Position numbers and translations under genes: made by a program
The notes under the pieces: model-generated
What the model was told of the DNA's origin: nothing
Seen by the model: the letters and a program-made list of their open reading frames with translations, nothing else
Databases searched by the model: none
Assembly (NCBI RefSeq): GCF_009707865.1
Contig: NZ_WMBA01000048.1
Location: 1-32,000 of the forward strand
Direction of reading: 5' to 3'
DNA length: 32,000 bases
DNA from: Amycolatopsis pithecellobii
Lineage (GTDB): Bacteria; Actinomycetota; Actinomycetes; Mycobacteriales; Pseudonocardiaceae
Shown here: positions 5,875 to 15,344 of the stretch, one piece after another
Layout of the letters: the number at the start of each line of letters is the position of its first letter
Position numbering within the stretch: the first letter of the stretch is position 1

Positions 5875-8798
5875 GTGCTTCCCTCGCGTACGTATCGCTT
5901 CACTCCAGCCACAATGTCGATGCGCACATCGAAAGGAGCCTTCTGGGCATATTCCTCGAACTTGATGGCAAAGCGCCGCAGGCCACGCGGGCCGCCCAGC
6001 ATCGCGGTAGCCTCATTTTCGGTCACTGTACCGTGCGCTGCCAGATGTTCGAACACTTGTCGGACACCCGATTCGGGGAATTGCTGGAGCCAGCTTGCAT
6101 TGCTCGTCGTGGTGGTTGCTGCCTGCGCGGGCGCTGCTGCCGGCATCTCCCGCGTGGCGGTAACAGCGAACCGCGCATCTGGTACGAACGGCTGCACGTT
6201 AACTTCGGCGCTCGGGTGATGAAGTTCGACGCGCACCCGCTCGTCGAGCGCGCCGGTGAGGCGGAAGAAGACCTCGAAACGTTTACCGACGGTCGCGACG
6301 ACCACGCCACCCGAGATCCGCGCGCCGCCACGAGTCTGACCGAGCTCAACGAACACGTTCTCTACATCGTGCACCCTCAACGCGAGCTCGACCTCTGCGG
6401 GGCTGCCGAAGTCCAGCGATTGGTCGCCAAGGACATCGACCTTGGCTTCGATGCAATGCATTCCGGCGACGCCCTCGCTAGCCGCGGCGGTGACGCCGTA
6501 CTGAACGCCGCTGCCGCCGGATGCCGCGCGATGCGCCACGGTCAGCACCGGGATGACCCGTTCCTGCAGACTGTTGCCACCGTGCGCGAAGCTCTTGACC
6601 ACCCGACCGGTATCGAAAACCGCGGTGGTCTCCGGGAACATCACCTGCCCGGTTGCTCCCTGATAGCCGAGGTCCGCCAGCGCGACCCTCGCCTCTCCTA
6701 CGTGATCAGCCGGCACCGGCGAGAACACAAACCGCTGGCTCGGATCGATGCGACGGCCATGGGCTTGGGCAGTTGCGCGCGTGTTGTCCAACAGTAGGAA
6801 GCCGTGGTCGCTGGTGATGACGAAGCGTCGCACACCCGCGTCGCGCAACGTTCTCCACGCGGCCCGCAGCTTCTGCATGACAACGTCGAACATCGCAGGG
6901 CCGACGCCTTTCTCACCAGCGTCGTCGATCTCTCGGCTGTGCACGACGATCAGCCGTGCTTTGGCGATGGAGCGCTTGAGCCAGGCGATATCTCGGCTGA
7001 CAACCTCGTCGAGGGGAAGCCATGGGCATGTCGCGCCGCCGACCCGGTCGTGCATGGCACGTTTGCGTGTTTCTGGGTCTCGCACGCGGAACTCGCCGGC
7101 CTGAAAGCCCTGAATGCCACCGGTATCACCGGCTAGCGAGATCTGCAGCCGACCGTTCTTCTCCACCGGCGCGAGTACATTCATGCCCACTGCGGTCACT
7201 GTCGGCAGCTCGGCGAGCCGGGGTTTGATCAGCACAGTAGTGGCCGGCGTGTCGGCTAGTTGGCGATAAAGCTCCTCGCCCATCTCGAACCGCAACGCGT
7301 CGACGACGAAGTAGGCGGTGGTGCCGGGTTCTTTGGTCAGTGGCTTGACCACCTCGTCGAAAAGCGTCCGCTGCTGATACGAGGCGCCTGGGAGGAAACC
7401 GTGGGTCTTGCAGAGCGTGTTGAACTCCCGTGCCCAGCCGTCAGCCCAGACGCGCCAGGCGTGACGCATCCCGTCGAGACGGCTCCGTAGGGTTTCGAAC
7501 TCGGGCAGAAGCGGGTAGAGCAGCGCCATCCGAAGCTGCTCAAGCTGCCGATGCGCCTGATCTACGGCTGCGCCACGTTCGACGTAGGTGGCAACAGCAG
7601 CTTCGATGCCATTGTGCATGCCTTTGGCAATGCCGATGCGGTCGCCCGCCCGCGCGATCGCCTGACCAAGCCGGGCTGCAGCATGGACGAGCTGCCAAGC
7701 GGACTGCCGTGCCGGATCGTCCCGGAGCCAGAACGACGCACCGGCTGGTTCAGGTGCCGTCCGCGGATCAGCCCACTCGGCCGCCTGGTCGAAGTCCGCG
7801 CGTTCGAGCGCGACCAACGCGGCCTTGAGGACCTTGTCCTCCTCGAACCGGAACGTGTCGATCTTGCCGAGGTCTTCGGCGCGGGCCGCCTCGACCTCGT
7901 CGGCCAGCAACGCCTCGGTCTCGTCGGCCGTTCGCCGATAGAAGTCCGGGTATCGCTCCCTAAGGTGCGCGGCCACCGTCCGGCAGGTCTCGATGATCTG
8001 ACTCGGCAGGTTCACCGCAGGACCGAGCAGCGCCCCGGCTGGTTCGTGTTTCGGGTCGTGCACGTATTCCACGCACAGCGCCCAGCTCGCCGCCGCGAAC
8101 GCCACGTCCTCAGCGCGCGGCGGCGTTGGCGGCAGCGTGATGTCACGCCAGTTTTCCGGGAGACCGACCCATGCGGCGAGGCGTTCCCACAGGGCGTTCT
8201 CGTCGTCGAGCTGGCCGATGCAGGTGGCAACGAACCCGCCGGTAAGCAGGTCGTCGAATACGGCAGTCGGTTTCATAGCACGTAGCTGAGCCGGGAGACC
8301 CCCGCCTGTGTCGTTCAGGAGAGCGCTCAGCCAGGCGTCCGCGCCGGCGAGCGTCAGGTCCGGCTGCGCGGTGAACGCCACGATCTGGTCCGGGCGCACC
8401 CGGCTGGCCGCGGCGTCGGTGATCAGCGTGTGCAATGCCTTCCGGTAGCGCGTGCCCGCCGCGTACAGTTCGAACAGCGGCGTCCGACGGACGGTCTCCT
8501 CGGTGAACCCGGGCAGATGAACGACCAACGGCGGCTTTTCGGTCCCGGCGGCGACCCCGTCCAACGCCAGCATCAGCGCCAAGTGGCTCCCACGAAACGC
8601 ATGCACCTCATACGGCAGAGCCCCGGCGGAGCGCAACGCTTGGAGCCGATCAACGAACTCGCTGTACTGCCCAGCCTGGTCCAGCCACATGACCAAGCCC
8701 TGCTTACGCACCCACGAACGCAGGTCTTTTTCCAGCGTCGCGGATACCGGGCCGTCGATTCCCGCCGTCGAAGGCGGGGATTCCGCTGCCGTCGTCAT
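5871..8798 (-). CDS. pglZ: BREX PglZ-domain alkaline-phosphatase-superfamily protein (975 aa from the ATG at 8798)
   Basis: PglZ signatures YFVVDALRFEMGEELY and FVITSDHGFLLL. The ATG at 8798 forms an ATGA overlap with the pglX stop at 8795. The 51 extra N-terminal codons in the track ORF (to 8951) are R-rich and lie inside pglX. Confidence 0.88.
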   Translation of the reverse strand: MTTAAESPPSTAGIDGPVSATLEKDLRSWVRKQGLVMWLDQAGQYSEFVDRLQALRSAGALPYEVHAFRGSHLALMLALDGVAAGTEKPPLVVHLPGFTEETVRRTPLFELYAAGTRYRKALHTLITDAAASRVRPDQIVAFTAQPDLTLAGADAWLSALLNDTGGGLPAQLRAMKPTAVFDDLLTGGFVATCIGQLDDENALWERLAAWVGLPENWRDITLPPTPPRAEDVAFAAASWALCVEYVHDPKHEPAGALLGPAVNLPSQIIETCRTVAAHLRERYPDFYRRTADETEALLADEVEAARAEDLGKIDTFRFEEDKVLKAALVALERADFDQAAEWADPRTAPEPAGASFWLRDDPARQSAWQLVHAAARLGQAIARAGDRIGIAKGMHNGIEAAVATYVERGAAVDQAHRQLEQLRMALLYPLLPEFETLRSRLDGMRHAWRVWADGWAREFNTLCKTHGFLPGASYQQRTLFDEVVKPLTKEPGTTAYFVVDALRFEMGEELYRQLADTPATTVLIKPRLAELPTVTAVGMNVLAPVEKNGRLQISLAGDTGGIQGFQAGEFRVRDPETRKRAMHDRVGGATCPWLPLDEVVSRDIAWLKRSIAKARLIVVHSREIDDAGEKGVGPAMFDVVMQKLRAAWRTLRDAGVRRFVITSDHGFLLLDNTRATAQAHGRRIDPSQRFVFSPVPADHVGEARVALADLGYQGATGQVMFPETTAVFDTGRVVKSFAHGGNSLQERVIPVLTVAHRAASGGSGVQYGVTAAASEGVAGMHCIEAKVDVLGDQSLDFGSPAEVELALRVHDVENVFVELGQTRGGARISGGVVVATVGKRFEVFFRLTGALDERVRVELHHPSAEVNVQPFVPDARFAVTATREMPAAAPAQAATTTTSNASWLQQFPESGVRQVFEHLAAHGTVTENEATAMLGGPRGLRRFAIKFEEYAQKAPFDVRIDIVAGVKRYVREGST

Positions 8799-11700
8799 GC
8801 GTCGTCCTCCGCGCTTTTCCCGAAGTCCTCGTCCGCGAAGAAGATCAGCGGGACGAGCTCGGCGAGGCGTTTCTTGCGGGCTTGCGCCTTCTGCGGATGT
8901 TTCGTCTCGAACGCCGCGCGGGCAGCGGGCTCGTCGGGCGCGACGATGCACAGCTCAGCGCCCTGCTTCTCGGCCAGTCGCAGCTCCATGTCCCACAACT
9001 CCTCGGCGTGCGCCGACCACAGACCCGCTTCGAGAAGACGCAGTTCATCGATGAGTTTCCGGTTCTTACCCCGCCCCATCCGCCGGATCGCCTCGTTCTC
9101 GATGGCCGCGAGGGCGACCTCGGGCTGGTCACGCAGGAACGTTTCGCGGTGCGGGTCGTCGCCGCGGTCACCAATGTCGCGTCCTCCTGGATGGTAGGGC
9201 GGCTCCTCGATCCGGAAATCGGGACCGATCTCGTCCTGCAGCCGCAGCTCCCATGCCCACGCGCGCGCCTGGTGGTAACGCCAGAAACAGCCGTGCGCGA
9301 CGCCAAGGCTGGGGTCGTTCTGGCATTTCTTGTCGACCCTGGTCGGCCAATACCGCACCGCCAGATGGGACCAGTCGTAGTCCTTGCGACCACTCGCGAC
9401 GGCCAGCTCTTTCCACCACTTCTTCGGGTCTTTCCACTGCGGGTCGAGCAGCGGCCACAACGCGGCGGAGTTGATCATCACCCCGTCGTCGAGATCAGGC
9501 GCATACCGTGCGTCCCGCTCACGGGCCGGACACTTGTCGTCGGTCGGCGGCGCACCCCGATCCGCACACTGCTCGACATCGGCGATGAAGGCCCGCAACT
9601 CGTCCCGTGCCTTGGCCATCCGAACGTATTGCCGCTCGGCGGCAGTGGCGGCCTTTTTGTCCGCGCCGTCCCGGGCTGCGCGGACATCGGCAAGCTCGCC
9701 TTCCAATCGCTTCAGCGTCGGCATGAGATGGTCGGCGAGCAGCACCCGCAACGTCTGCTCATTCATCTGGTGAATATTAACCCACGCCACGAAGGTCTTG
9801 CCCGACGAGGACAGCGGCCAATGAATAGGCCGGTTTTCATACATGCCTTTATGGACGTCCTTGAAGAAATCAAGCGCAAGCCAGTCCCGCAGCCCGCGCC
9901 TCGTCCCGATCGCCGGACCGTACTCGGCCCAAGCAGTATGCAACGGCGCCGCGGCGGACTCCCCAAGACTGTCCCGCCAATCCGTGGCGTCCAACGTCCG
10001 ATCAAGAAACAAGATCCCACCCGGCAACACATGGGACAGGTCGGCAGTCGTGGGATTCAACACGCCCTTTCCCTCGGAATCAAAACGTCCAAGAGTCACG
10101 CCGAGCGCGAAACTAGCGTGGTCGACGGCGGGTTCAGGATCAAGCTCTTCAACATATTCTGGCAATGGCGTACCCGGTGAACGGTCGATGGCGACTTGGG
10201 CCCACTCTTGGACATGACGCCAGGCCGAAGGGCCAGGGCGACGAAACTCGACAGAGGGTTCACGGTGAGATTCATGCGTGACGAATGCCGCCTCGACCTG
10301 AGCGAAGATGGCATCAGCGTCCGGCATGGGGAACAGTGGAAGTCGGTTTACGTCACCAACAAGGAAATGCACTCCCGGATTTAGCGACGAAAGAATAAAT
10401 CGAGCAAAAGATGAGTTCAACAGGCAGACGATAGTTGCCAGATTGTCCTCGCCGGGAAAAACCGATGCGCCCATATGTCCGAAGACCGAACGATACCGAT
10501 GGGCGCGTGCGCTGAACCCGCTGCCGATGAGAGCGAAGGCAACACCCTTATTGAAGTAGAGACCCTCGTTCTTAACTGTCCGGGAGTACGATCCGTACAA
10601 CATCTCGTTGAAAACTTTTGCTTCCATGCCAAAGTTAGAGAATCGGACTACATCCCTCGCGTCTTCGAACCACGCCCGCCCTTCTGCTCCTTTAATGTAC
10701 AAAGCCCACTCTTCGGATGGGCAAGGATTCAGGTCGCCAAGCCCCAGATACACCCGAGACGGCAATAACTCCCATTGCATGCGCAGAAAGCGGGCGTTGT
10801 TTTGCGTGGACATCCCATTACGCACAGGGGCGACGTTTGCCAACTTTGCATAGTGTGTGTACACGTTAATAATGTCGTTGGCCCACCAATAGACAAGAGG
10901 CCAATCTGGAACGACCTTCAATTTGGCGGGGTCGAAGGTGCATCTCCCGTTGTGACAGAGAACGGCCGCACGCTTTCTGTTTAGTGCCGAAATAGACCGA
11001 TCGCGTGGTTCGTCCCGAGGTGTTGGAACTAGACCTGCGGCCTGCACGCCCTTCGTTATTCCCCGCAACAGGCAGTACATTGCGATAGTATTATCGCGCA
11101 TTTGCTCAAAGGAAGACCAGAGAAGATCGACCACGGACTGGACAGAATGTTCTTCCAGTATGCTCCCTCGAAATTCAGCATACTGATTAAGGTACATCCA
11201 CCCATTCATGGATACTTGCGCAGTATATCCCCCATTGCGCACCAGTTCCAAACCTCGTAGGAGAAATGCTGCATACAGGTCGGCTTTGCCAAGTGGGTAC
11301 ATTGTCTCTACATACGCCGAGTTCGCCATTTTGCTGGTGCCCTGGTATGGCGGGTTGGCCATAACCAGGTCGTACGTTCCTTCGCGGACAAGGCGGATGA
11401 AGCGGACGCCTGCAGTGAGTTGTTCGCCGCGTAGCCGGAGGCCTAGGTCGTCGCCGTTGGTGTGTCTGGTTAGGAAGGTTTCCAGGCGGTCGAGCAGGGT
11501 GGCCTTGGCTTCGGCACGGCCGATGGTGGTGCGTTTGGGCTGTGGCGTGCCGTCGTCGAACAATGACCCCTGCTCGCTGATCGCCCGGCCGAACGCGGCT
11601 TCGTGTTGGGCCAGTGCCTTGTCCACCGCGGCGTCGACCTTGAGCAGGCTGCCTAGATGGTCGGCGCCGCGGAGGGCGTGGATCAGGGTGTCGGTCAGCT

Positions 11701-12737
11701 CGCCGGGTAGGCCGGTCTCGCGTTCGACCTCGCGGCGCAGTTCGACTAGTGCCGGGTCGTCGTCGGCGAGGCCGGCCAGACGCAGGTTCGACGCGACCAG
11801 GTTCAACCGTTCAGGTTGGGCGCCAGGGCAAATTTGTTGGGCCTTGAGCCAGAGGGCCGCCGCCGCGATCTGGATCGCCCGTGGATCAAGATCGATGCCG
11901 TGCAGGTTGTGCGACAAGATGCGTTCGATGATCGCCCGGTCGGACCAGCGCTCCGCGTCGGCTTCGCCCCGGTGCCGTGCTTCCTCGCGATAAAGGGGAA
12001 CAAGCAGGTCCAGCGCCACGACGAGGAAATGGCCTGAGCCTGCTGCTGGGTCGATCAGCTTCAGGTCACGCACGGTGTCGGGTGCTTGTGCCACGGCGTC
12101 GTCGGGGATCGGTTGCGGCAGGTAGTAGGCCCAGTGGCGTTCGGCTTCGGTATGCAGCGGCATCAGGTCGGTCAGCTCGACTTCGCCGGACCCGCGCTTG
12201 GCCCGCCACTCCGTGCGCCGCTCTTCCAACCGGTCCAGCGTGCCGTCAGCCTGGACTTCCGGGGTCCAGCCGTGTTTGCGGCACATGGCGAGCCACATGG
12301 GTCCGAGGCTGTTCTGCAGCCAGTCCACCATATAGCGCTCGGTGAACATCTGGGTTTTGCTGGCGATCTCGTGCGGCTCCACCTTGCCGCCGCCATTGAG
12401 CTTGTCGTCGAGGGCTTCACGTTCGGGGTCATTCCAGTACTGGTAGACCCAGCCGAGGGTCATGTCGTCGGTCCAGCAACTGTCCAGCGCATCGTCATTG
12501 AGCGCGTCAACCACGTGCCGGAGCGTCGACGCCGGGACTGGAATTAGATCAGCGATACCCGCAGGCCCGTAGAGACCAGGCAGTTCGATGGCGAGGTCTT
12601 CGAACGTGAGGCGCAGCAGGAACGCGTAGCCCTCGGTCTCGTCGGCGCGCACCAGGTCTTTGGCGAGGTCGCGGAAGTCTGTGTAGCCGCGGCTTTCCCA
12701 GCCGCCGGTCAGCACGGCGGGCGCCCGTAACGGCTTA
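8795..12737 (-). pseudogene. pglX: BREX PglX N6-adenine DNA methyltransferase, main body (1313 codons), cut off from its 5' end by IS insertions
   Basis: AdoMet motif LIDPAAGSGHFLV and catalytic motif MANPPYQG (NPPY = 11345-11356). PglX-type C-terminus (HWPLSSSGKTF..., YAPDLDDGVMINSAALWPLL, DYDWSHLAVRYWPTRVDKKC). The frame stays open upstream of the GTG at 12715 right up to the IS junction, and it continues in frame with the fragment at 15022-15344 once the IS DNA is removed. Confidence 0.88.
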
Positions 12738-12738
12738 G

Positions 12739-14120
12739 TACTGCAACGACACTTCGAGATGTTGTCGGCGGCGGTAGTGGCTGGTTCGGGCTCGGGCTTG
12801 GCTGCTTCGTCGCCATCGTGACCAGTGCAGGGCGTGCTGGATTGTGTGGCGAATTGGCGTGGTGACGCGGTTGAGTAGTTTGCGGATTTCGTTGGATGTT
12901 AGCGGTATCAGGCCGGGCGTGGAGCCCCTTTTTTCGCGGCGTCCCGGGTGATCACGAGAAACGCCGCGGCAGCCATCGAAAGGGTGATATGCCGGTACCA
13001 GGCTTCGTATCTGCGGGCCTGGTAGTGGTCGAGTCCGGTTTCGTTCTTCGCGGTTTGGAAGCTTTCTTCGATCGCCCAGCGGCTTCCGGCAACACGCACC
13101 AGTTCTGGCAAATCGGTTTCGGCAGGGCCGAAGCAAATGTAGTAGGAAATCTCGGTCGGGTCGCTGATCGAGCGGCGAGCCAGCAGCCAATGCCCGGCCT
13201 CGGGGCAACGCAGGGGCCGGATGTCGACCGCGGCCCAGTCGTAGATCCGCTGGCCGTGGGCGCCATCGCCGCAGGACAGACGCTGCCAGATAGCCGGGTC
13301 GATCTCGGCGATGACGGCGTGGGCGCGCCGCTGCCGCAGATCCATGGAAATCACCATCTGCGACTTGGGGACCGCGAGCACGTGTGCGATGTCCTGCGCT
13401 TCCAGCCAGAGCCGCAGCCGTCCGACCTGGCCGTAGGCTTCATCGGCGGTGAACCACGCAAACGGAATATTCGCCGCCAGTGCACGTTCCACCATCCGCT
13501 GCGCCAGCTCCGGCTTGGTCGCGAAACCGACATCGTCGGGAATGCCGGCGGCAGCGCACCGGTCACGATCGGCGATCCAGTCTTTCGGCAGATACAACTC
13601 CCGATCGATCAACGCCCGGCCACGGTCCGACGCATACGCCAAGAACACCCCGATCTGGGAATTCTCGATCCGCCCGGCCGTGCCCGAATACTGGCGTGCC
13701 ACGCCAGCGGATTTTATGCCCTTCTTCACGAAGCCGGTCTCGTCCGCGATCAAGACTCCGCGTTCGGCGTCGCCGAGAACCTCGACCACCGCGCCCCGCA
13801 CGTCGTCACGTACCCCATCCGCGTCCCAGGCATAGAAGTTCAGCAGCCGCTGCATACCCTGCGGGCCGGCCTCACCGGCCATCTCCGCCAGCGTCCAACC
13901 GTTCTTCCGCTCGACCTCGGCCAGCAGTCCCCGCAGGTAGGACACCATCTGCCGGCGCGGCTCGACCCGCGAAAACCGCGTCGCGAACCGCCCCGCGAAC
14001 TCAGCGAACCGCGCAGACCAGCCCGTCACCATCTCCAACACACAAGATCAACTACACTATGGACAGCGCTGAGCCTAGCCGACACACCCAGCCAACACGT
14101 AACAAAGTGTCGTTGCAGTA
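12739..14120 (-). mobile_element. IS701-family insertion sequence (1382 bp) inside pglX
   Basis: 16-bp terminal inverted repeats TACTGCAACGACACTT (12739-12754 and the reverse complement of 14105-14120). Flanked by a direct TTAG at 12735-12738 and 14121-14124. Contains a single DDE transposase ORF. Confidence 0.85.
12908..14041 (-). CDS. IS701-family DDE transposase (377 aa)
   Basis: Motifs typical of IS701/ISRso17-type transposases: LIADETGFVKKG, ARQYSGTAGRIENSQIG, FTADEAYG, RWAIEESFQTAKNETGLDHYQ. Confidence 0.85.
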   Translation of the reverse strand: MLEMVTGWSARFAEFAGRFATRFSRVEPRRQMVSYLRGLLAEVERKNGWTLAEMAGEAGPQGMQRLLNFYAWDADGVRDDVRGAVVEVLGDAERGVLIADETGFVKKGIKSAGVARQYSGTAGRIENSQIGVFLAYASDRGRALIDRELYLPKDWIADRDRCAAAGIPDDVGFATKPELAQRMVERALAANIPFAWFTADEAYGQVGRLRLWLEAQDIAHVLAVPKSQMVISMDLRQRRAHAVIAEIDPAIWQRLSCGDGAHGQRIYDWAAVDIRPLRCPEAGHWLLARRSISDPTEISYYICFGPAETDLPELVRVAGSRWAIEESFQTAKNETGLDHYQARRYEAWYRHITLSMAAAAFLVITRDAAKKGAPRPA

Positions 14121-14123
14121 TTA

Positions 14124-15021
14124 GAGGTCCTAACAGAATGATCTTGGGTGTGGTTTGATCTTGCCGGAGTGGTGATCGTCTGGCGGGAGGTTGGTGTGGC
14201 CCAGCGCAGGCCGTGGGAGGTCGAGGATGGGCTGTGGGAGCTGATCGAGCCGTTGCTGCCCAAGGTCGAGCGGCGTTTCCGCAACCCTGGCCGCAGGCGG
14301 CTGGATGACCGCAAAGCGTTGTGCGGGATCCTGTTCGTGCTGTACACGGGCATTCCGTGGGAGTTTCTGCCGCAGGAGATGGGATACGGCTCGGGGATGA
14401 CCTGTTGGCGGCGGCTGCGCGACTGGCACGATGCGCAGGTGTGGCAGCGTCTGCACGAGCTGCTGCTGGCCAAGCTGAATGCCGCTGGGCTGATCGACTG
14501 GTCGCGGGCCGCGGTGGACGGGTCGCACGTTCGCGCGTTAAAGGGGGCCCGAAAACCGGTCCCAGTCCGGTCGATCGGGCCAGGACGGGCTCGAAGCATC
14601 ATGTGATCACCGAGGGCGGCGGCCTCCCGTTGGCGGTGACGCTGACCGGCGGCAACCGTCACGATGTCACCCAACTGCTCCCGCTGGTCGAGTCGATTCC
14701 GCCTGTCCGGGGACGACGTGGGCGGCCCCGCCGTCGCCCTGACGAGATCTACGCCGACCGCGCCTACGACTCCAACAAGCACCGAGACCTGGTGCGCGCG
14801 AAGGGGATCGAGCCCCGGTTCGCCCGCAAGGGCACCGAGCACGGTTCCGGGCTGGGCCTGAACCGCTGGGTCGTCGAACAATGCTTCGCGTTGCTGCACT
14901 GGTTCCGGCGGCTGCGCTCCGGTGGGAAATCCGCGACGACATCCACGAAGCCTTCCTCAGCATCGGATGCAGCATCATCTGCTGGCGCCGACTCAAGATC
15001 AACTCATTGTGTTAGGACCTC
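14124..15021 (+). mobile_element. IS5-family (IS427-group-like) insertion sequence (898 bp) inside pglX, abutting the IS701 element
   Basis: Inverted repeats GAGGTCCTAACAGAATGA (14124-14141) and the reverse complement of 15004-15021 (GAGGTCCTAACACAATGA) match at 17 of 18 positions. Flanked by TTA at 14121-14123 and 15022-15024. Confidence 0.85.
14196..15015 (+). pseudogene. IS5/IS427-type transposase: orfA/orfB joined by a -1 frameshift, plus a likely additional frameshift near the 3' end
   Basis: orfA reads RRPWEVEDGLWELIEPLLP...DGSHVRALKG. It shifts -1 at the slippery TTAAAGGGGG (14538-14547) into GPKTGPSPVDRARTGSKHHV...DRAYDS...NRWVVEQCFALLHWFRRLR. The expected tail RWEIRDDIHEAFLSIGCSIICWRRLKINSLC* (stop 15013-15015, inside the IR) is in yet another frame from about 14917. 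Confidence 0.7.

Positions 15022-15344
<323 letters not shown>

What the first reader, a model, noticed from the sequence alone, without database searches (positions are those of the whole stretch)
10300..11340. Sharply bounded low-GC block inside pglX, just downstream of the NPPY motif (possible swapped specificity module)
I hand-counted GC in 60-nt lines. Inside the block the values are about 42% (10381-10440), 52% (10801-10860), 47% (10861-10920), 47% (11101-11160), 45% (11161-11220) and 50% (11221-11280). In the same gene the flanks give 63% (10201-10260), 60% (11341-11400) and 68% (11401-11460). The block covers about aa 458-805 of the 1306-codon body. That is everything from just after NPPY (aa 454-457) through the region where gamma-class methyltransferases carry their target-recognition domain. 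Codon choice also changes there (AAT, TTA, ATA, AAA appear). This looks like a recombinational mosaic in which the sequence-specificity part of the methyltransferase came from a lower-GC donor.
Basis: seen in the sequence. Interest (0 to 1): 0.65.

Follow-up and report, generated by a model that had tools for sequence, protein, structure and literature searches.

The report
AT-shifted specificity cassettes in BREX-6 pglX
The low-GC stretch is real and covers the two DNA-reading parts of a phage-defence methyltransferase gene, parts that relatives swap by recombination; every relative shows the same dip, so it is a standing feature of the gene family and does not prove a recent import, and the copy here is a broken remnant.

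Summary
The dip is real. A two-breakpoint fit puts it at aa 468-883 of the 1306-codon ORF (window 10067-11314), with GC3 0.555 inside and 0.797 outside. That is far beyond permutation and ranks 5th of 550 long ORFs in this genome. The upstream edge is sharp.

The gene is a BREX type 6 pglX. The block holds two hypervariable cassettes:
- A (aa 497-580) is the C-terminal half of the methyltransferase fold. It includes the loop that reads the last motif base pair in E. coli BrxX.
- B (aa 612-815) is the target-recognition domain.

Among homologues A and B assort independently. All four combinations occur, and there are clean swaps between near-identical genes.

The low GC does not point to a donor:
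- All 73 BREX-6 pglX genes examined (hosts 41-73% GC) have B below the arms.
- The deficit is regional, not residue-level.
- Twelve diverged copies of this B type all sit near GC3 0.6 and show no upward amelioration.
- The window's B co-diverges with its arms. Only A looks extra-diverged.

This pglX is split by two IS elements, and brxC was not found in the genome. The scan has reported the same pattern in pglX of other genomes.

The parts
8795..12715 (-). 3' body of pglX (1306 codons, open frame), BREX type 6 adenine methyltransferase. It lacks about 118 N-terminal codons, which an insertion has separated from it.
   Evidence: PADLOC PglX model PDLC02523, 2055 bits, profile positions 114-1408 of 1428. 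Pfam Eco57I, MmeI_Mtase and N6_Mtase. 79% identity to proteins that NCBI names BREX-6 PglX.
10067..11314 (-). Low-GC3 block (aa 468-883) as fitted by two breakpoints.
   Evidence: GC3 0.555 against 0.797; 2*dlnL 78.8 against a permutation maximum of 23.4.
11345..11356 (-). Motif IV, NPPY (aa 454-457), just upstream of the block.
   Evidence: Aligns with NPPY 509-512 of Salmonella PglX.
11228..11344 (-). Conserved anchor or shoulder 'pre' (aa 458-496). 5' crossover points of cassette-A swaps fall here.
   Evidence: Nucleotide identity between L017 and L016 drops from 0.88 to 0.64 between aa 451-480 and 481-510. GC3 is 0.56 here against 0.72-0.92 in 11 close relatives.
10976..11227 (-). Cassette A (aa 497-580): the hypervariable C-terminal half of the methyltransferase fold.
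   Evidence: Identity to homologues is bimodal (20-40% or 60-70%). There is a clean swap between S. cavernae and Streptomyces sp. NPDC007851. On cassette-A data the AU test rejects the clade of the three Streptomyces genes, p 2e-67.
11081..11125 (-). aa 531-545 (LLWSSFEQMRDNTIA), the counterpart of the E. coli BrxX loop 587-601 that reads the last base pair of the motif.
   Evidence: HMMER alignment to 9EWZ; role of the loop from bioRxiv 10.1101/2024.04.12.589305. F536, invariant among the 28 aligned homologues, aligns with BrxX F592.
10883..10975 (-). Conserved connector between the cassettes (aa 581-611, RKRAA...PLVYWW), around the hinge.
   Evidence: Aligns near the Salmonella PglX hinge 654-659.
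10271..10882 (-). Cassette B (aa 612-815): the target-recognition domain.
   Evidence: Query 446-798 aligns with Salmonella PglX 501-853, where the TRD is 662-849. The AF2 model matches 8Q56, 8C45 and 9EWZ at TM about 0.65. Identity is bimodal, and there is a clean swap against Micromonospora L018.
10796..10825 (-). aa 631-640 (VRNGMSTQNN). N633 and S636 align with BrxX K681 and D684, which contact base pair 2. G634 and T637 are invariant in the family, and the contact positions differ between cassette types.
   Evidence: Alignment; contacts; invariant columns; variants read from the sequences.
10067..10270 (-). Shoulder 'post' (aa 816-883): start of the helical spacer. It has low GC3 in this copy only.
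   Evidence: GC3 is 0.55 here against 0.74-0.92 in 11 close relatives.
12736..14123 (.). Insertion sequence 1, with a DDE_5 transposase at 12908-14041 (-). It splits pglX.
   Evidence: 19-nt inverted repeats at 12736-12754 and 14105-14123. Pfam DDE_5, E 2.5e-49.
14123..15022 (.). Insertion sequence 2, abutting the first.
   Evidence: 19-nt inverted repeats at 14123-14141 and 15004-15022. A partial copy lies on contig C74.
15021..15287 (-). Detached 5' fragment of pglX (matches aa 21-109 of full-length PglX).
   Evidence: tblastn with the S. cavernae PglX N-terminus, 76% identity, E 9e-35.

Best explanation
The block is the DNA-specificity region of a BREX type 6 PglX methyltransferase. It consists of two exchangeable cassettes set between conserved anchors.

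Cassette A (aa 497-580) is the C-terminal half of the methyltransferase fold, with the loop that reads the 3'-most base pair of the motif in E. coli BrxX. Cassette B (aa 612-815) is the target-recognition domain, which reads the first four base pairs there.

Shown: across the family, crossovers in the conserved anchors (NPPY...LELVRxGG, RKRAA...PLVYWW, HESHREPSVEF) move A and B independently between otherwise similar genes.

Inferred: this reassorts motif specificity.

Shown: the AT shift at synonymous sites is a long-standing regional property of these cassettes in every host examined. It does not date or source an import. In the window's copy the TRD has diverged together with the arms.

Inferred, weakly: only cassette A and the two shoulders suggest an older exchange.

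Inferred: the likely cause of the shift is that the GC-favouring force acting on the arms (selection or GC-biased repair during homologous exchange) works less well on cassettes. Cassettes exist as many deeply diverged allele classes and move only as whole units.

Shown: the gene here is inactivated by two IS elements in a truncated island, so the specificity is probably no longer expressed.
For: - Identity of the gene.
- Real dip.
- Domain mapping: HMMER alignment to 8C45 and 9EWZ, published domain limits and DNA contacts, and an AF2 model with Foldseek hits to PglX/BrxX.
- Independent assortment: segment identities are bimodal in A and B but unimodal in the arms. The four-gamete table is 3/15/12/89.
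- Clean swaps: L017 against L016 is 0.94-1.00 nt identical in most 30-codon windows outside aa 361-600, against 0.56-0.64 within aa 481-600. L017 against L018 is about 0.9 up to aa 600, then 0.40-0.53 over aa 631-810.
- AU tests: on cassette data they reject the groupings seen on the arm tree (p 2e-67 and 0.0012).
- Family-wide dip: B is below the arms in 73/73 loci and A in 71/73. B GC3 = 0.76*arms - 0.04, r 0.86.
- Regional, not site-wise: dGC3 is -0.23 at invariant columns of B and -0.04 at the least conserved arm columns.
- No amelioration: 12 B1 cassettes have GC3 0.56-0.68 at up to 28% nt divergence, with W->S 59 against S->W 91.
- Window copy: B distances match arm distances.
- Decay of the locus.
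Against: - No methylation motif is known for any BREX-6 system used here, so the link from cassette type to motif rests on about 21%-identity alignments to type 1 enzymes.
- For the window's own gene, no arm/cassette discordance reaches significance.
- The clades tested were named after the trees were seen.
- Directional counts use parsimony, which is biased in GC-rich sequence. The arms give an implausible 63:393.
- The 73 loci are related, not independent.
- The cause of the AT shift is inference only.
Confidence: 0.78

Rival explanations
1. One reading: the whole block (aa 468-883) was brought into this gene in one recombination from a pglX living in a lower-GC genome, and it has not yet ameliorated.
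For: - In this copy the low-GC3 tract is contiguous and wider than in 11 close relatives. GC3 is 0.56 in 'pre', 0.49 in A and 0.55 in 'post', against 0.72-0.92, 0.69-0.73 (same A type) and 0.74-0.92 in relatives.
- Cassette A is 69% identical to same-type relatives, where other early-branching members show about 90%.
- The 5' GC3 edge coincides with the anchor where A swaps cross over.
Against: - No closer block was found in 5.8 billion proteins.
- B is no more diverged than the arms.
- All segments place the window within the actinomycete BREX-6 clade.
- The dip in B is universal and stable.
- The arm data do not reject a clade of the window with the B1 carriers.
Confidence: 0.2
2. The dip is a by-product of weak amino-acid constraint: variable residues use fewer preferred (GC-ending) codons, so a variable domain looks AT-rich.
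For: Within the arms GC3 rises slightly with column conservation, from -0.04 to +0.03. The cassettes are the least conserved part of the protein (mean column conservation 0.52-0.58 against 0.74).
Against: Invariant columns inside B are as depleted (-0.23) as its most variable columns, and fourfold-degenerate codons give the same result. Variable stretches of the arms (aa 361-420, conservation 0.50) show only -0.04 to -0.06.
Confidence: 0.05
3. The composition reflects decay of a dead gene after the IS insertions.
For: pglX is split by two IS elements, and the S. cavernae upstream proteins (BrxC and a 295-aa ORF) have no hit anywhere in the genome.
Against: The 1306-codon frame has no stop codon. 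The arms keep GC3 at 0.80. Most relatives read without an internal stop and show the same dip.
Confidence: 0.02
4. The cassettes are kept AT-rich by selection at the DNA or RNA level, for example on local duplex stability, silencing, or translation pace through the DNA-binding domain.
For: The offset is regional, always downward, and present in hosts of 41-73% GC across several phyla.
Against: No element was found. Nothing was tested beyond composition. A selected DNA or RNA feature shared across so many phyla is hard to specify.
Confidence: 0.08

Closest known systems
Type 1 BREX PglX/BrxX (Salmonella PglX, PDB 8C45/8Q56, PMC11341690; E. coli HS BrxX, PDB 9EWZ/8ZEK, bioRxiv 10.1101/2024.04.12.589305)
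   Same: Same order of domains: helical N-terminus, gamma-class N6-adenine methyltransferase with GxG and NPPY, hinge, TRD, helical spacer, C-terminal region. The best sequence and fold matches are to these structures. In them the TRD is reported as the fastest-evolving part, and specificity was re-engineered through TRD residues.
   Different: Only about 21% identity. This is the type 6 subfamily (about 1425 aa) with the gene partners brxD and brxHI. No motif or structure is known for it. The papers read here do not describe two independently assorting cassettes or the family-wide synonymous AT shift.
Allelic TRD substitution and 'domain movement' in Type I HsdS, Type IIG and Type III Mod genes (Furuta et al., PMC2853133, PMC3077401, PMC3467074)
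   Same: Hypervariable DNA-recognition segments sit between conserved flanks and are exchanged by homologous recombination, giving new specificities.
   Different: Here the two units are not two TRDs of one S subunit. They are a TRD and part of the catalytic domain of a single-chain BREX methyltransferase. The exchange is seen across genera, not within one species.
Phase-variable or shufflon-type pglX (inverting or slipping loci mentioned in PMC11341690)
   Same: Both change PglX specificity or expression.
   Different: This genome holds no second copy of the block, and no silent cassette array was seen in the window. The variation is between genomes, not within a cell line.

Membership tests
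BREX type 6 PglX | Full-length similarity to proteins annotated as BREX-6 PglX, or to the matching PglX profile | tested here: met
   PADLOC PDLC02523, 2055 bits over aa 1-1304. 63-79% identity to proteins that NCBI names BREX-6 PglX.
BREX type 6 PglX | Gamma-class N6-adenine methyltransferase motifs I (GxG) and IV (NPPY) | tested here: met
   AGSGH at aa 225 and NPPY at aa 454-457. They align with the motifs of 8C45.
BREX type 6 PglX | Operon context: brxE/A/B/C upstream; pglZ, brxD and brxHI downstream | tested here: not met
   PglZ, BrxD and BrxHI are present downstream. The S. cavernae BrxC and the neighbouring upstream 295-aa ORF give no tblastn hit (E<=1e-5) anywhere in the genome, and metabolic genes follow the 5' fragment. 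The locus is a truncated remnant.
BREX type 6 PglX | Intact gene of about 1425 codons | tested here: not met
   The first ~118 codons are missing from the ORF. Codons 21-109 lie 2.3 kb away, beyond two IS elements.
BREX type 6 PglX | Motif-specific adenine methylation and phage exclusion | not testable with these tools
   Needs a methylome and phage assays.
Exchangeable specificity (TRD) cassette | Hypervariable segment bounded by conserved flanks | tested here: met
   Identity is bimodal in A and B and unimodal in the arms. Column conservation profile.
Exchangeable specificity (TRD) cassette | Phylogeny of the segment discordant with the rest of the gene | tested here: met
   Met for relatives: clean swaps, four gametes, AU tests p 2e-67 and 0.0012. 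For the window's own gene the test is inconclusive (p 0.17 and 0.68).
Exchangeable specificity (TRD) cassette | The segment is the DNA-recognition part | tested here: met
   Alignment to solved structures with published TRD limits and DNA contacts, and a fold match.
Exchangeable specificity (TRD) cassette | Different cassettes give different recognition motifs | not testable with these tools
   Only inferred, from differences at positions aligned with BrxX K681/D684 and the loop 587-601.
Recently imported segment from a lower-GC donor (amelioration model) | A nearer relative of the segment exists elsewhere than of the rest of the gene | tested here: not met
   The block-only search returned the same best hits, at 76%.
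Recently imported segment from a lower-GC donor (amelioration model) | Net AT-to-GC synonymous substitution in a GC-rich host | tested here: not met
   W->S 59 against S->W 91 in cassette B across 12 genes. About 80:20 would be expected if it were rising to the arms' level.
Recently imported segment from a lower-GC donor (amelioration model) | The anomaly is absent from relatives | tested here: not met
   73 of 73 relatives have it in B.
Phase-variable shufflon | Silent alternative cassettes in the same genome | tested here: not met
   tblastn of the block against the whole genome finds only itself.

The most novel reading that the evidence does not exclude
The synonymous AT shift may be an intrinsic, stable equilibrium of exchangeable specificity cassettes. 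It would be a population-genetic mark of allele classes held by frequency-dependent selection, which rarely meet a homologous partner and so escape the GC-favouring force acting on the conserved arms. If so, an internal GC3 dip that is regional, host-independent in sign and not ameliorating would be a sequence-only detector of specificity determinants in defence genes in general.
Probability: 0.3. Interest if true: 0.55.

Novelty: new member of a known kind. Interest (0 to 1): 0.33.

Why it matters
It corrects a tempting inference. A low-GC block in a specificity domain is not by itself evidence of a recent foreign donor, because here it is a family-wide standing feature.

It also gives BREX type 6, which has no solved structure or known motif, a concrete map of two separately exchangeable specificity units. 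These could be tested with methylomes of existing strains that carry the four combinations.

For this genome the practical consequence is small, because the locus is a broken remnant.

Tried and rejected
- A search of 60 related genomes found no close pglX, so the island is sporadic and offered no within-genus comparison.
- A first genome-wide null based on the minimum 100-codon GC3 of stop-to-stop frames was contaminated by non-coding leaders. I replaced it with a flanked-block scan.
- Pair-wise polarisation across the 73 loci gave only two usable pairs for cassette B. I therefore fetched eight more same-type genes.
- The residue-constraint explanation was rejected.
- The pool-mixing explanation predicts that cassettes regress to a common GC. 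It was rejected because the offset stays negative even in 41-46% GC Nostoc hosts.
- A silent-cassette or shufflon arrangement was rejected.
- Literature searches for a published statement on low GC of TRDs gave nothing directly usable beyond general remarks on RM genes.
Full report
**What is there**

The finding lies in a 1306-codon open frame on the minus strand (window 8795-12715). Its product matches PADLOC's PglX model over its whole length (2055 bits). It has Pfam Eco57I, MmeI_Mtase and N6_Mtase domains. It is 63-79% identical to proteins that NCBI names "BREX-6 system adenine-specific DNA-methyltransferase PglX", mostly from Streptomyces, Micromonospora and Actinomadura. PglZ, BrxD and BrxHI follow on the same strand.

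**The observation**

A 120-nt sliding profile shows 47-58% GC between about 10300 and 11360, against 60-74% on most of either side. Per codon position, the fall is strongest at the third position: 0.70-0.90 down to 0.42-0.68. It is also present at the first position and nearly absent at the second.

A maximum-likelihood two-breakpoint fit places the block at aa 468-883 (window 10067-11314):
- GC3 is 0.555 inside and 0.797 outside.
- 2*dlnL is 78.8, against at most 23.4 in 200 permutations.
- The start is tightly bounded (aa 424-474) and the end loosely (aa 878-968).

In the same genome (7.9 Mb, 68% GC) this internal dip ranks 5th of 550 long ORFs. NPPY is at aa 454-457, as stated.

**What the block encodes**

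HMMER aligns query aa 446-798 with residues 501-853 of Salmonella PglX (8C45) and 500-836 of E. coli BrxX. In Salmonella PglX the methyltransferase domain ends at 661, the hinge is 654-659 and the TRD is 662-849, followed by spacer helices (PMC11341690). In the BrxX-DNA structure the TRD reads the first four base pairs, and a loop of the methyltransferase domain (587-601) reads the last one (bioRxiv 10.1101/2024.04.12.589305).

Transferred through the alignment:
- The TRD is query aa ~607-795.
- The loop is aa 531-545.
- BrxX K681 and D684 fall on N633 and S636, within VRNGMSTQNN. There G634 and T637 are invariant in the family, while the contact positions differ between variants.

An AlphaFold2 model of aa 150-1100 (mean pLDDT 74) has the PglX/BrxX structures as its best Foldseek matches (TM about 0.65).

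**Mosaic structure of the family**

Segment-wise identity of 119 homologues to the query is unimodal in the N-terminal arm (70-90%). It is bimodal in aa 497-580 ("cassette A": 20-40% or 60-70%) and in aa 612-815 ("cassette B": 30-50% or 60-80%). All four combinations occur: same/same 3, A same only 15, B same only 12, neither 89.

At the DNA level:
- S. cavernae and Streptomyces sp. NPDC007851 are 0.94-1.00 identical in most windows outside aa 361-600, against 0.56-0.64 within aa 481-600.
- S. cavernae and Micromonospora sp. NPDC005806 are about 0.9 identical up to aa 600, then 0.40-0.53 over aa 631-810.
- On cassette-A data an AU test rejects the three Streptomyces genes as a clade (p 2e-67).
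- On cassette-B data it rejects the Streptomyces+Micromonospora clade seen on the arms (p 0.0012).

These groups were named after seeing the trees. So the specificity region is a recombinational mosaic in this family, with two units that move separately. Each unit carries one of the two DNA-reading elements.

**Is the low GC a donor signature?**

I extracted pglX from 73 genome loci without internal stops, from hosts with flanking GC of 41% to 73% and from several phyla.
- Cassette B has lower GC3 than the arms in 73 of 73 (mean -0.23). Cassette A does in 71 of 73 (-0.17).
- The offset stays negative in the AT-richest hosts (Nostoc: arms about 0.41-0.47, B 0.20-0.29).
- B tracks the arms (B = 0.76*arms - 0.04, r 0.86).

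A common AT-rich reservoir or simple mixing between hosts does not fit this.

The deficit is regional, not a residue-level effect. Invariant amino-acid columns inside B are as depleted (-0.23) as its most variable ones. The least conserved arm columns lose only 0.04, and fourfold-degenerate codons give the same result.

Twelve genes carry the window's B type (the window, three loci and eight fetched).
- They differ by up to 28% of nucleotides in B, in step with their arms.
- All have B at GC3 0.56-0.68, with arms (the N and C segments) at 0.74-0.87.
- Polarised synonymous changes in B run W->S 59 to S->W 91. Roughly 80:20 would be expected if B were rising towards the arms' level.

Parsimony is unreliable in the GC-rich arms (63:393), so I rely only on the cassette figure.

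**The window's own copy**

In every segment its nearest relatives are actinomycete BREX-6 genes. A search with the block alone found nothing closer than the whole-gene best hits (76%). B is about as diverged from the S. cavernae clade as the arms are (tree paths 0.29 against 0.27 and 0.30; nt identity 0.72-0.78 against 0.76-0.79). The arm data do not reject a clade of the window with the other B1 carriers (p 0.68).

What is particular to this copy is the width of the dip. The anchor before A, cassette A itself and the first 70 codons after B have GC3 of 0.56, 0.49 and 0.55. Eleven close relatives have 0.72-0.92, 0.69-0.73 (same A type) and 0.74-0.92. Cassette A is also only 69% identical to same-type relatives, where other early-branching members show about 90%. 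An older exchange involving A and its surroundings is therefore possible but not demonstrated.

**State of the locus**

The ORF lacks about 118 N-terminal codons found in all homologues. Codons 21-109 lie at 15287-15021, separated from the body by two abutting IS elements:
- IS 1: 12736-14123, with a DDE_5 transposase.
- IS 2: 14123-15022.

Each has 19-nt terminal inverted repeats. The S. cavernae BrxC and the neighbouring upstream ORF have no counterpart anywhere in the genome, and metabolic genes follow the 5' fragment. The scan's earlier notes say the same and name the organism as Amycolatopsis pithecellobii. I did not verify the name.

**Comparison with what is known**

Exchange of TRDs between alleles is established for Type I, IIG and III systems (PMC2853133; PMC3077401 and PMC3467074, listed). 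The TRD of type 1 PglX/BrxX is described as the fastest-evolving, specificity-determining part. Earlier notes from this scan report low-GC specificity blocks in pglX of BREX types 1 and 2 in other genomes, and one notes that nearly all relatives share the dip.

The present case is the type 6 instance. What I add:
- Two cassettes move independently.
- The AT shift is regional.
- The shift has the same sign in all hosts.
- It is not ameliorating.

Its cause remains an inference.

**Verdict**

The feature is real and well explained as exchangeable specificity cassettes. The donor inference is not supported. The copy itself is a dead remnant. Interest is modest.

Noticed in passing
window 12736-15022 and 15021-15287: pglX is split by two abutting IS elements, one carrying a DDE_5 transposase and one of about 900 bp. 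The detached 5' fragment (codons 21-109) lies beyond them. The S. cavernae BrxC and the neighbouring upstream 295-aa ORF have no counterpart anywhere in the genome.
   Followed up: partly
genome contig C74:40743-41042: A 301-nt stretch 90.7% identical to part of the second IS element. It is the only other trace of either element in the assembly.
   Followed up: no
window 10286-11497 (aa 407-810): PADLOC's Type IIG restriction-methyltransferase model PDLC03600 scores 334 bits for the whole protein, with its best stretch at aa 407-810. That is higher than several PglX subfamily models with their best stretch in the same region, and hints at kinship of the cassettes with Type IIG enzymes.
   Followed up: no
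arms of pglX in the window and 11 actinomycete loci (L015-L017, L095-L102): Polarised synonymous changes in the conserved arms run 63 W->S to 393 S->W. Either parsimony is badly biased at GC3 0.84, or the whole gene is losing GC in these hosts.
   Followed up: no
L023, L041, L077: The pglX frames of these three loci (a Planctomycetota MAG, a Synechococcus MAG and a Myxococcales MAG) contain internal stop codons, so broken BREX-6 pglX copies occur elsewhere too.
   Followed up: no
P0099 (Thiocystis violascens PglX, 1513 aa): Its C-terminal end appears to carry a second copy of the '...EAERRI..GR..R..V.EL.ILE.GLWSA...ELRL.GRQ...F..RAPDE..ARA.F' module, read by eye from the sequence.
   Followed up: no
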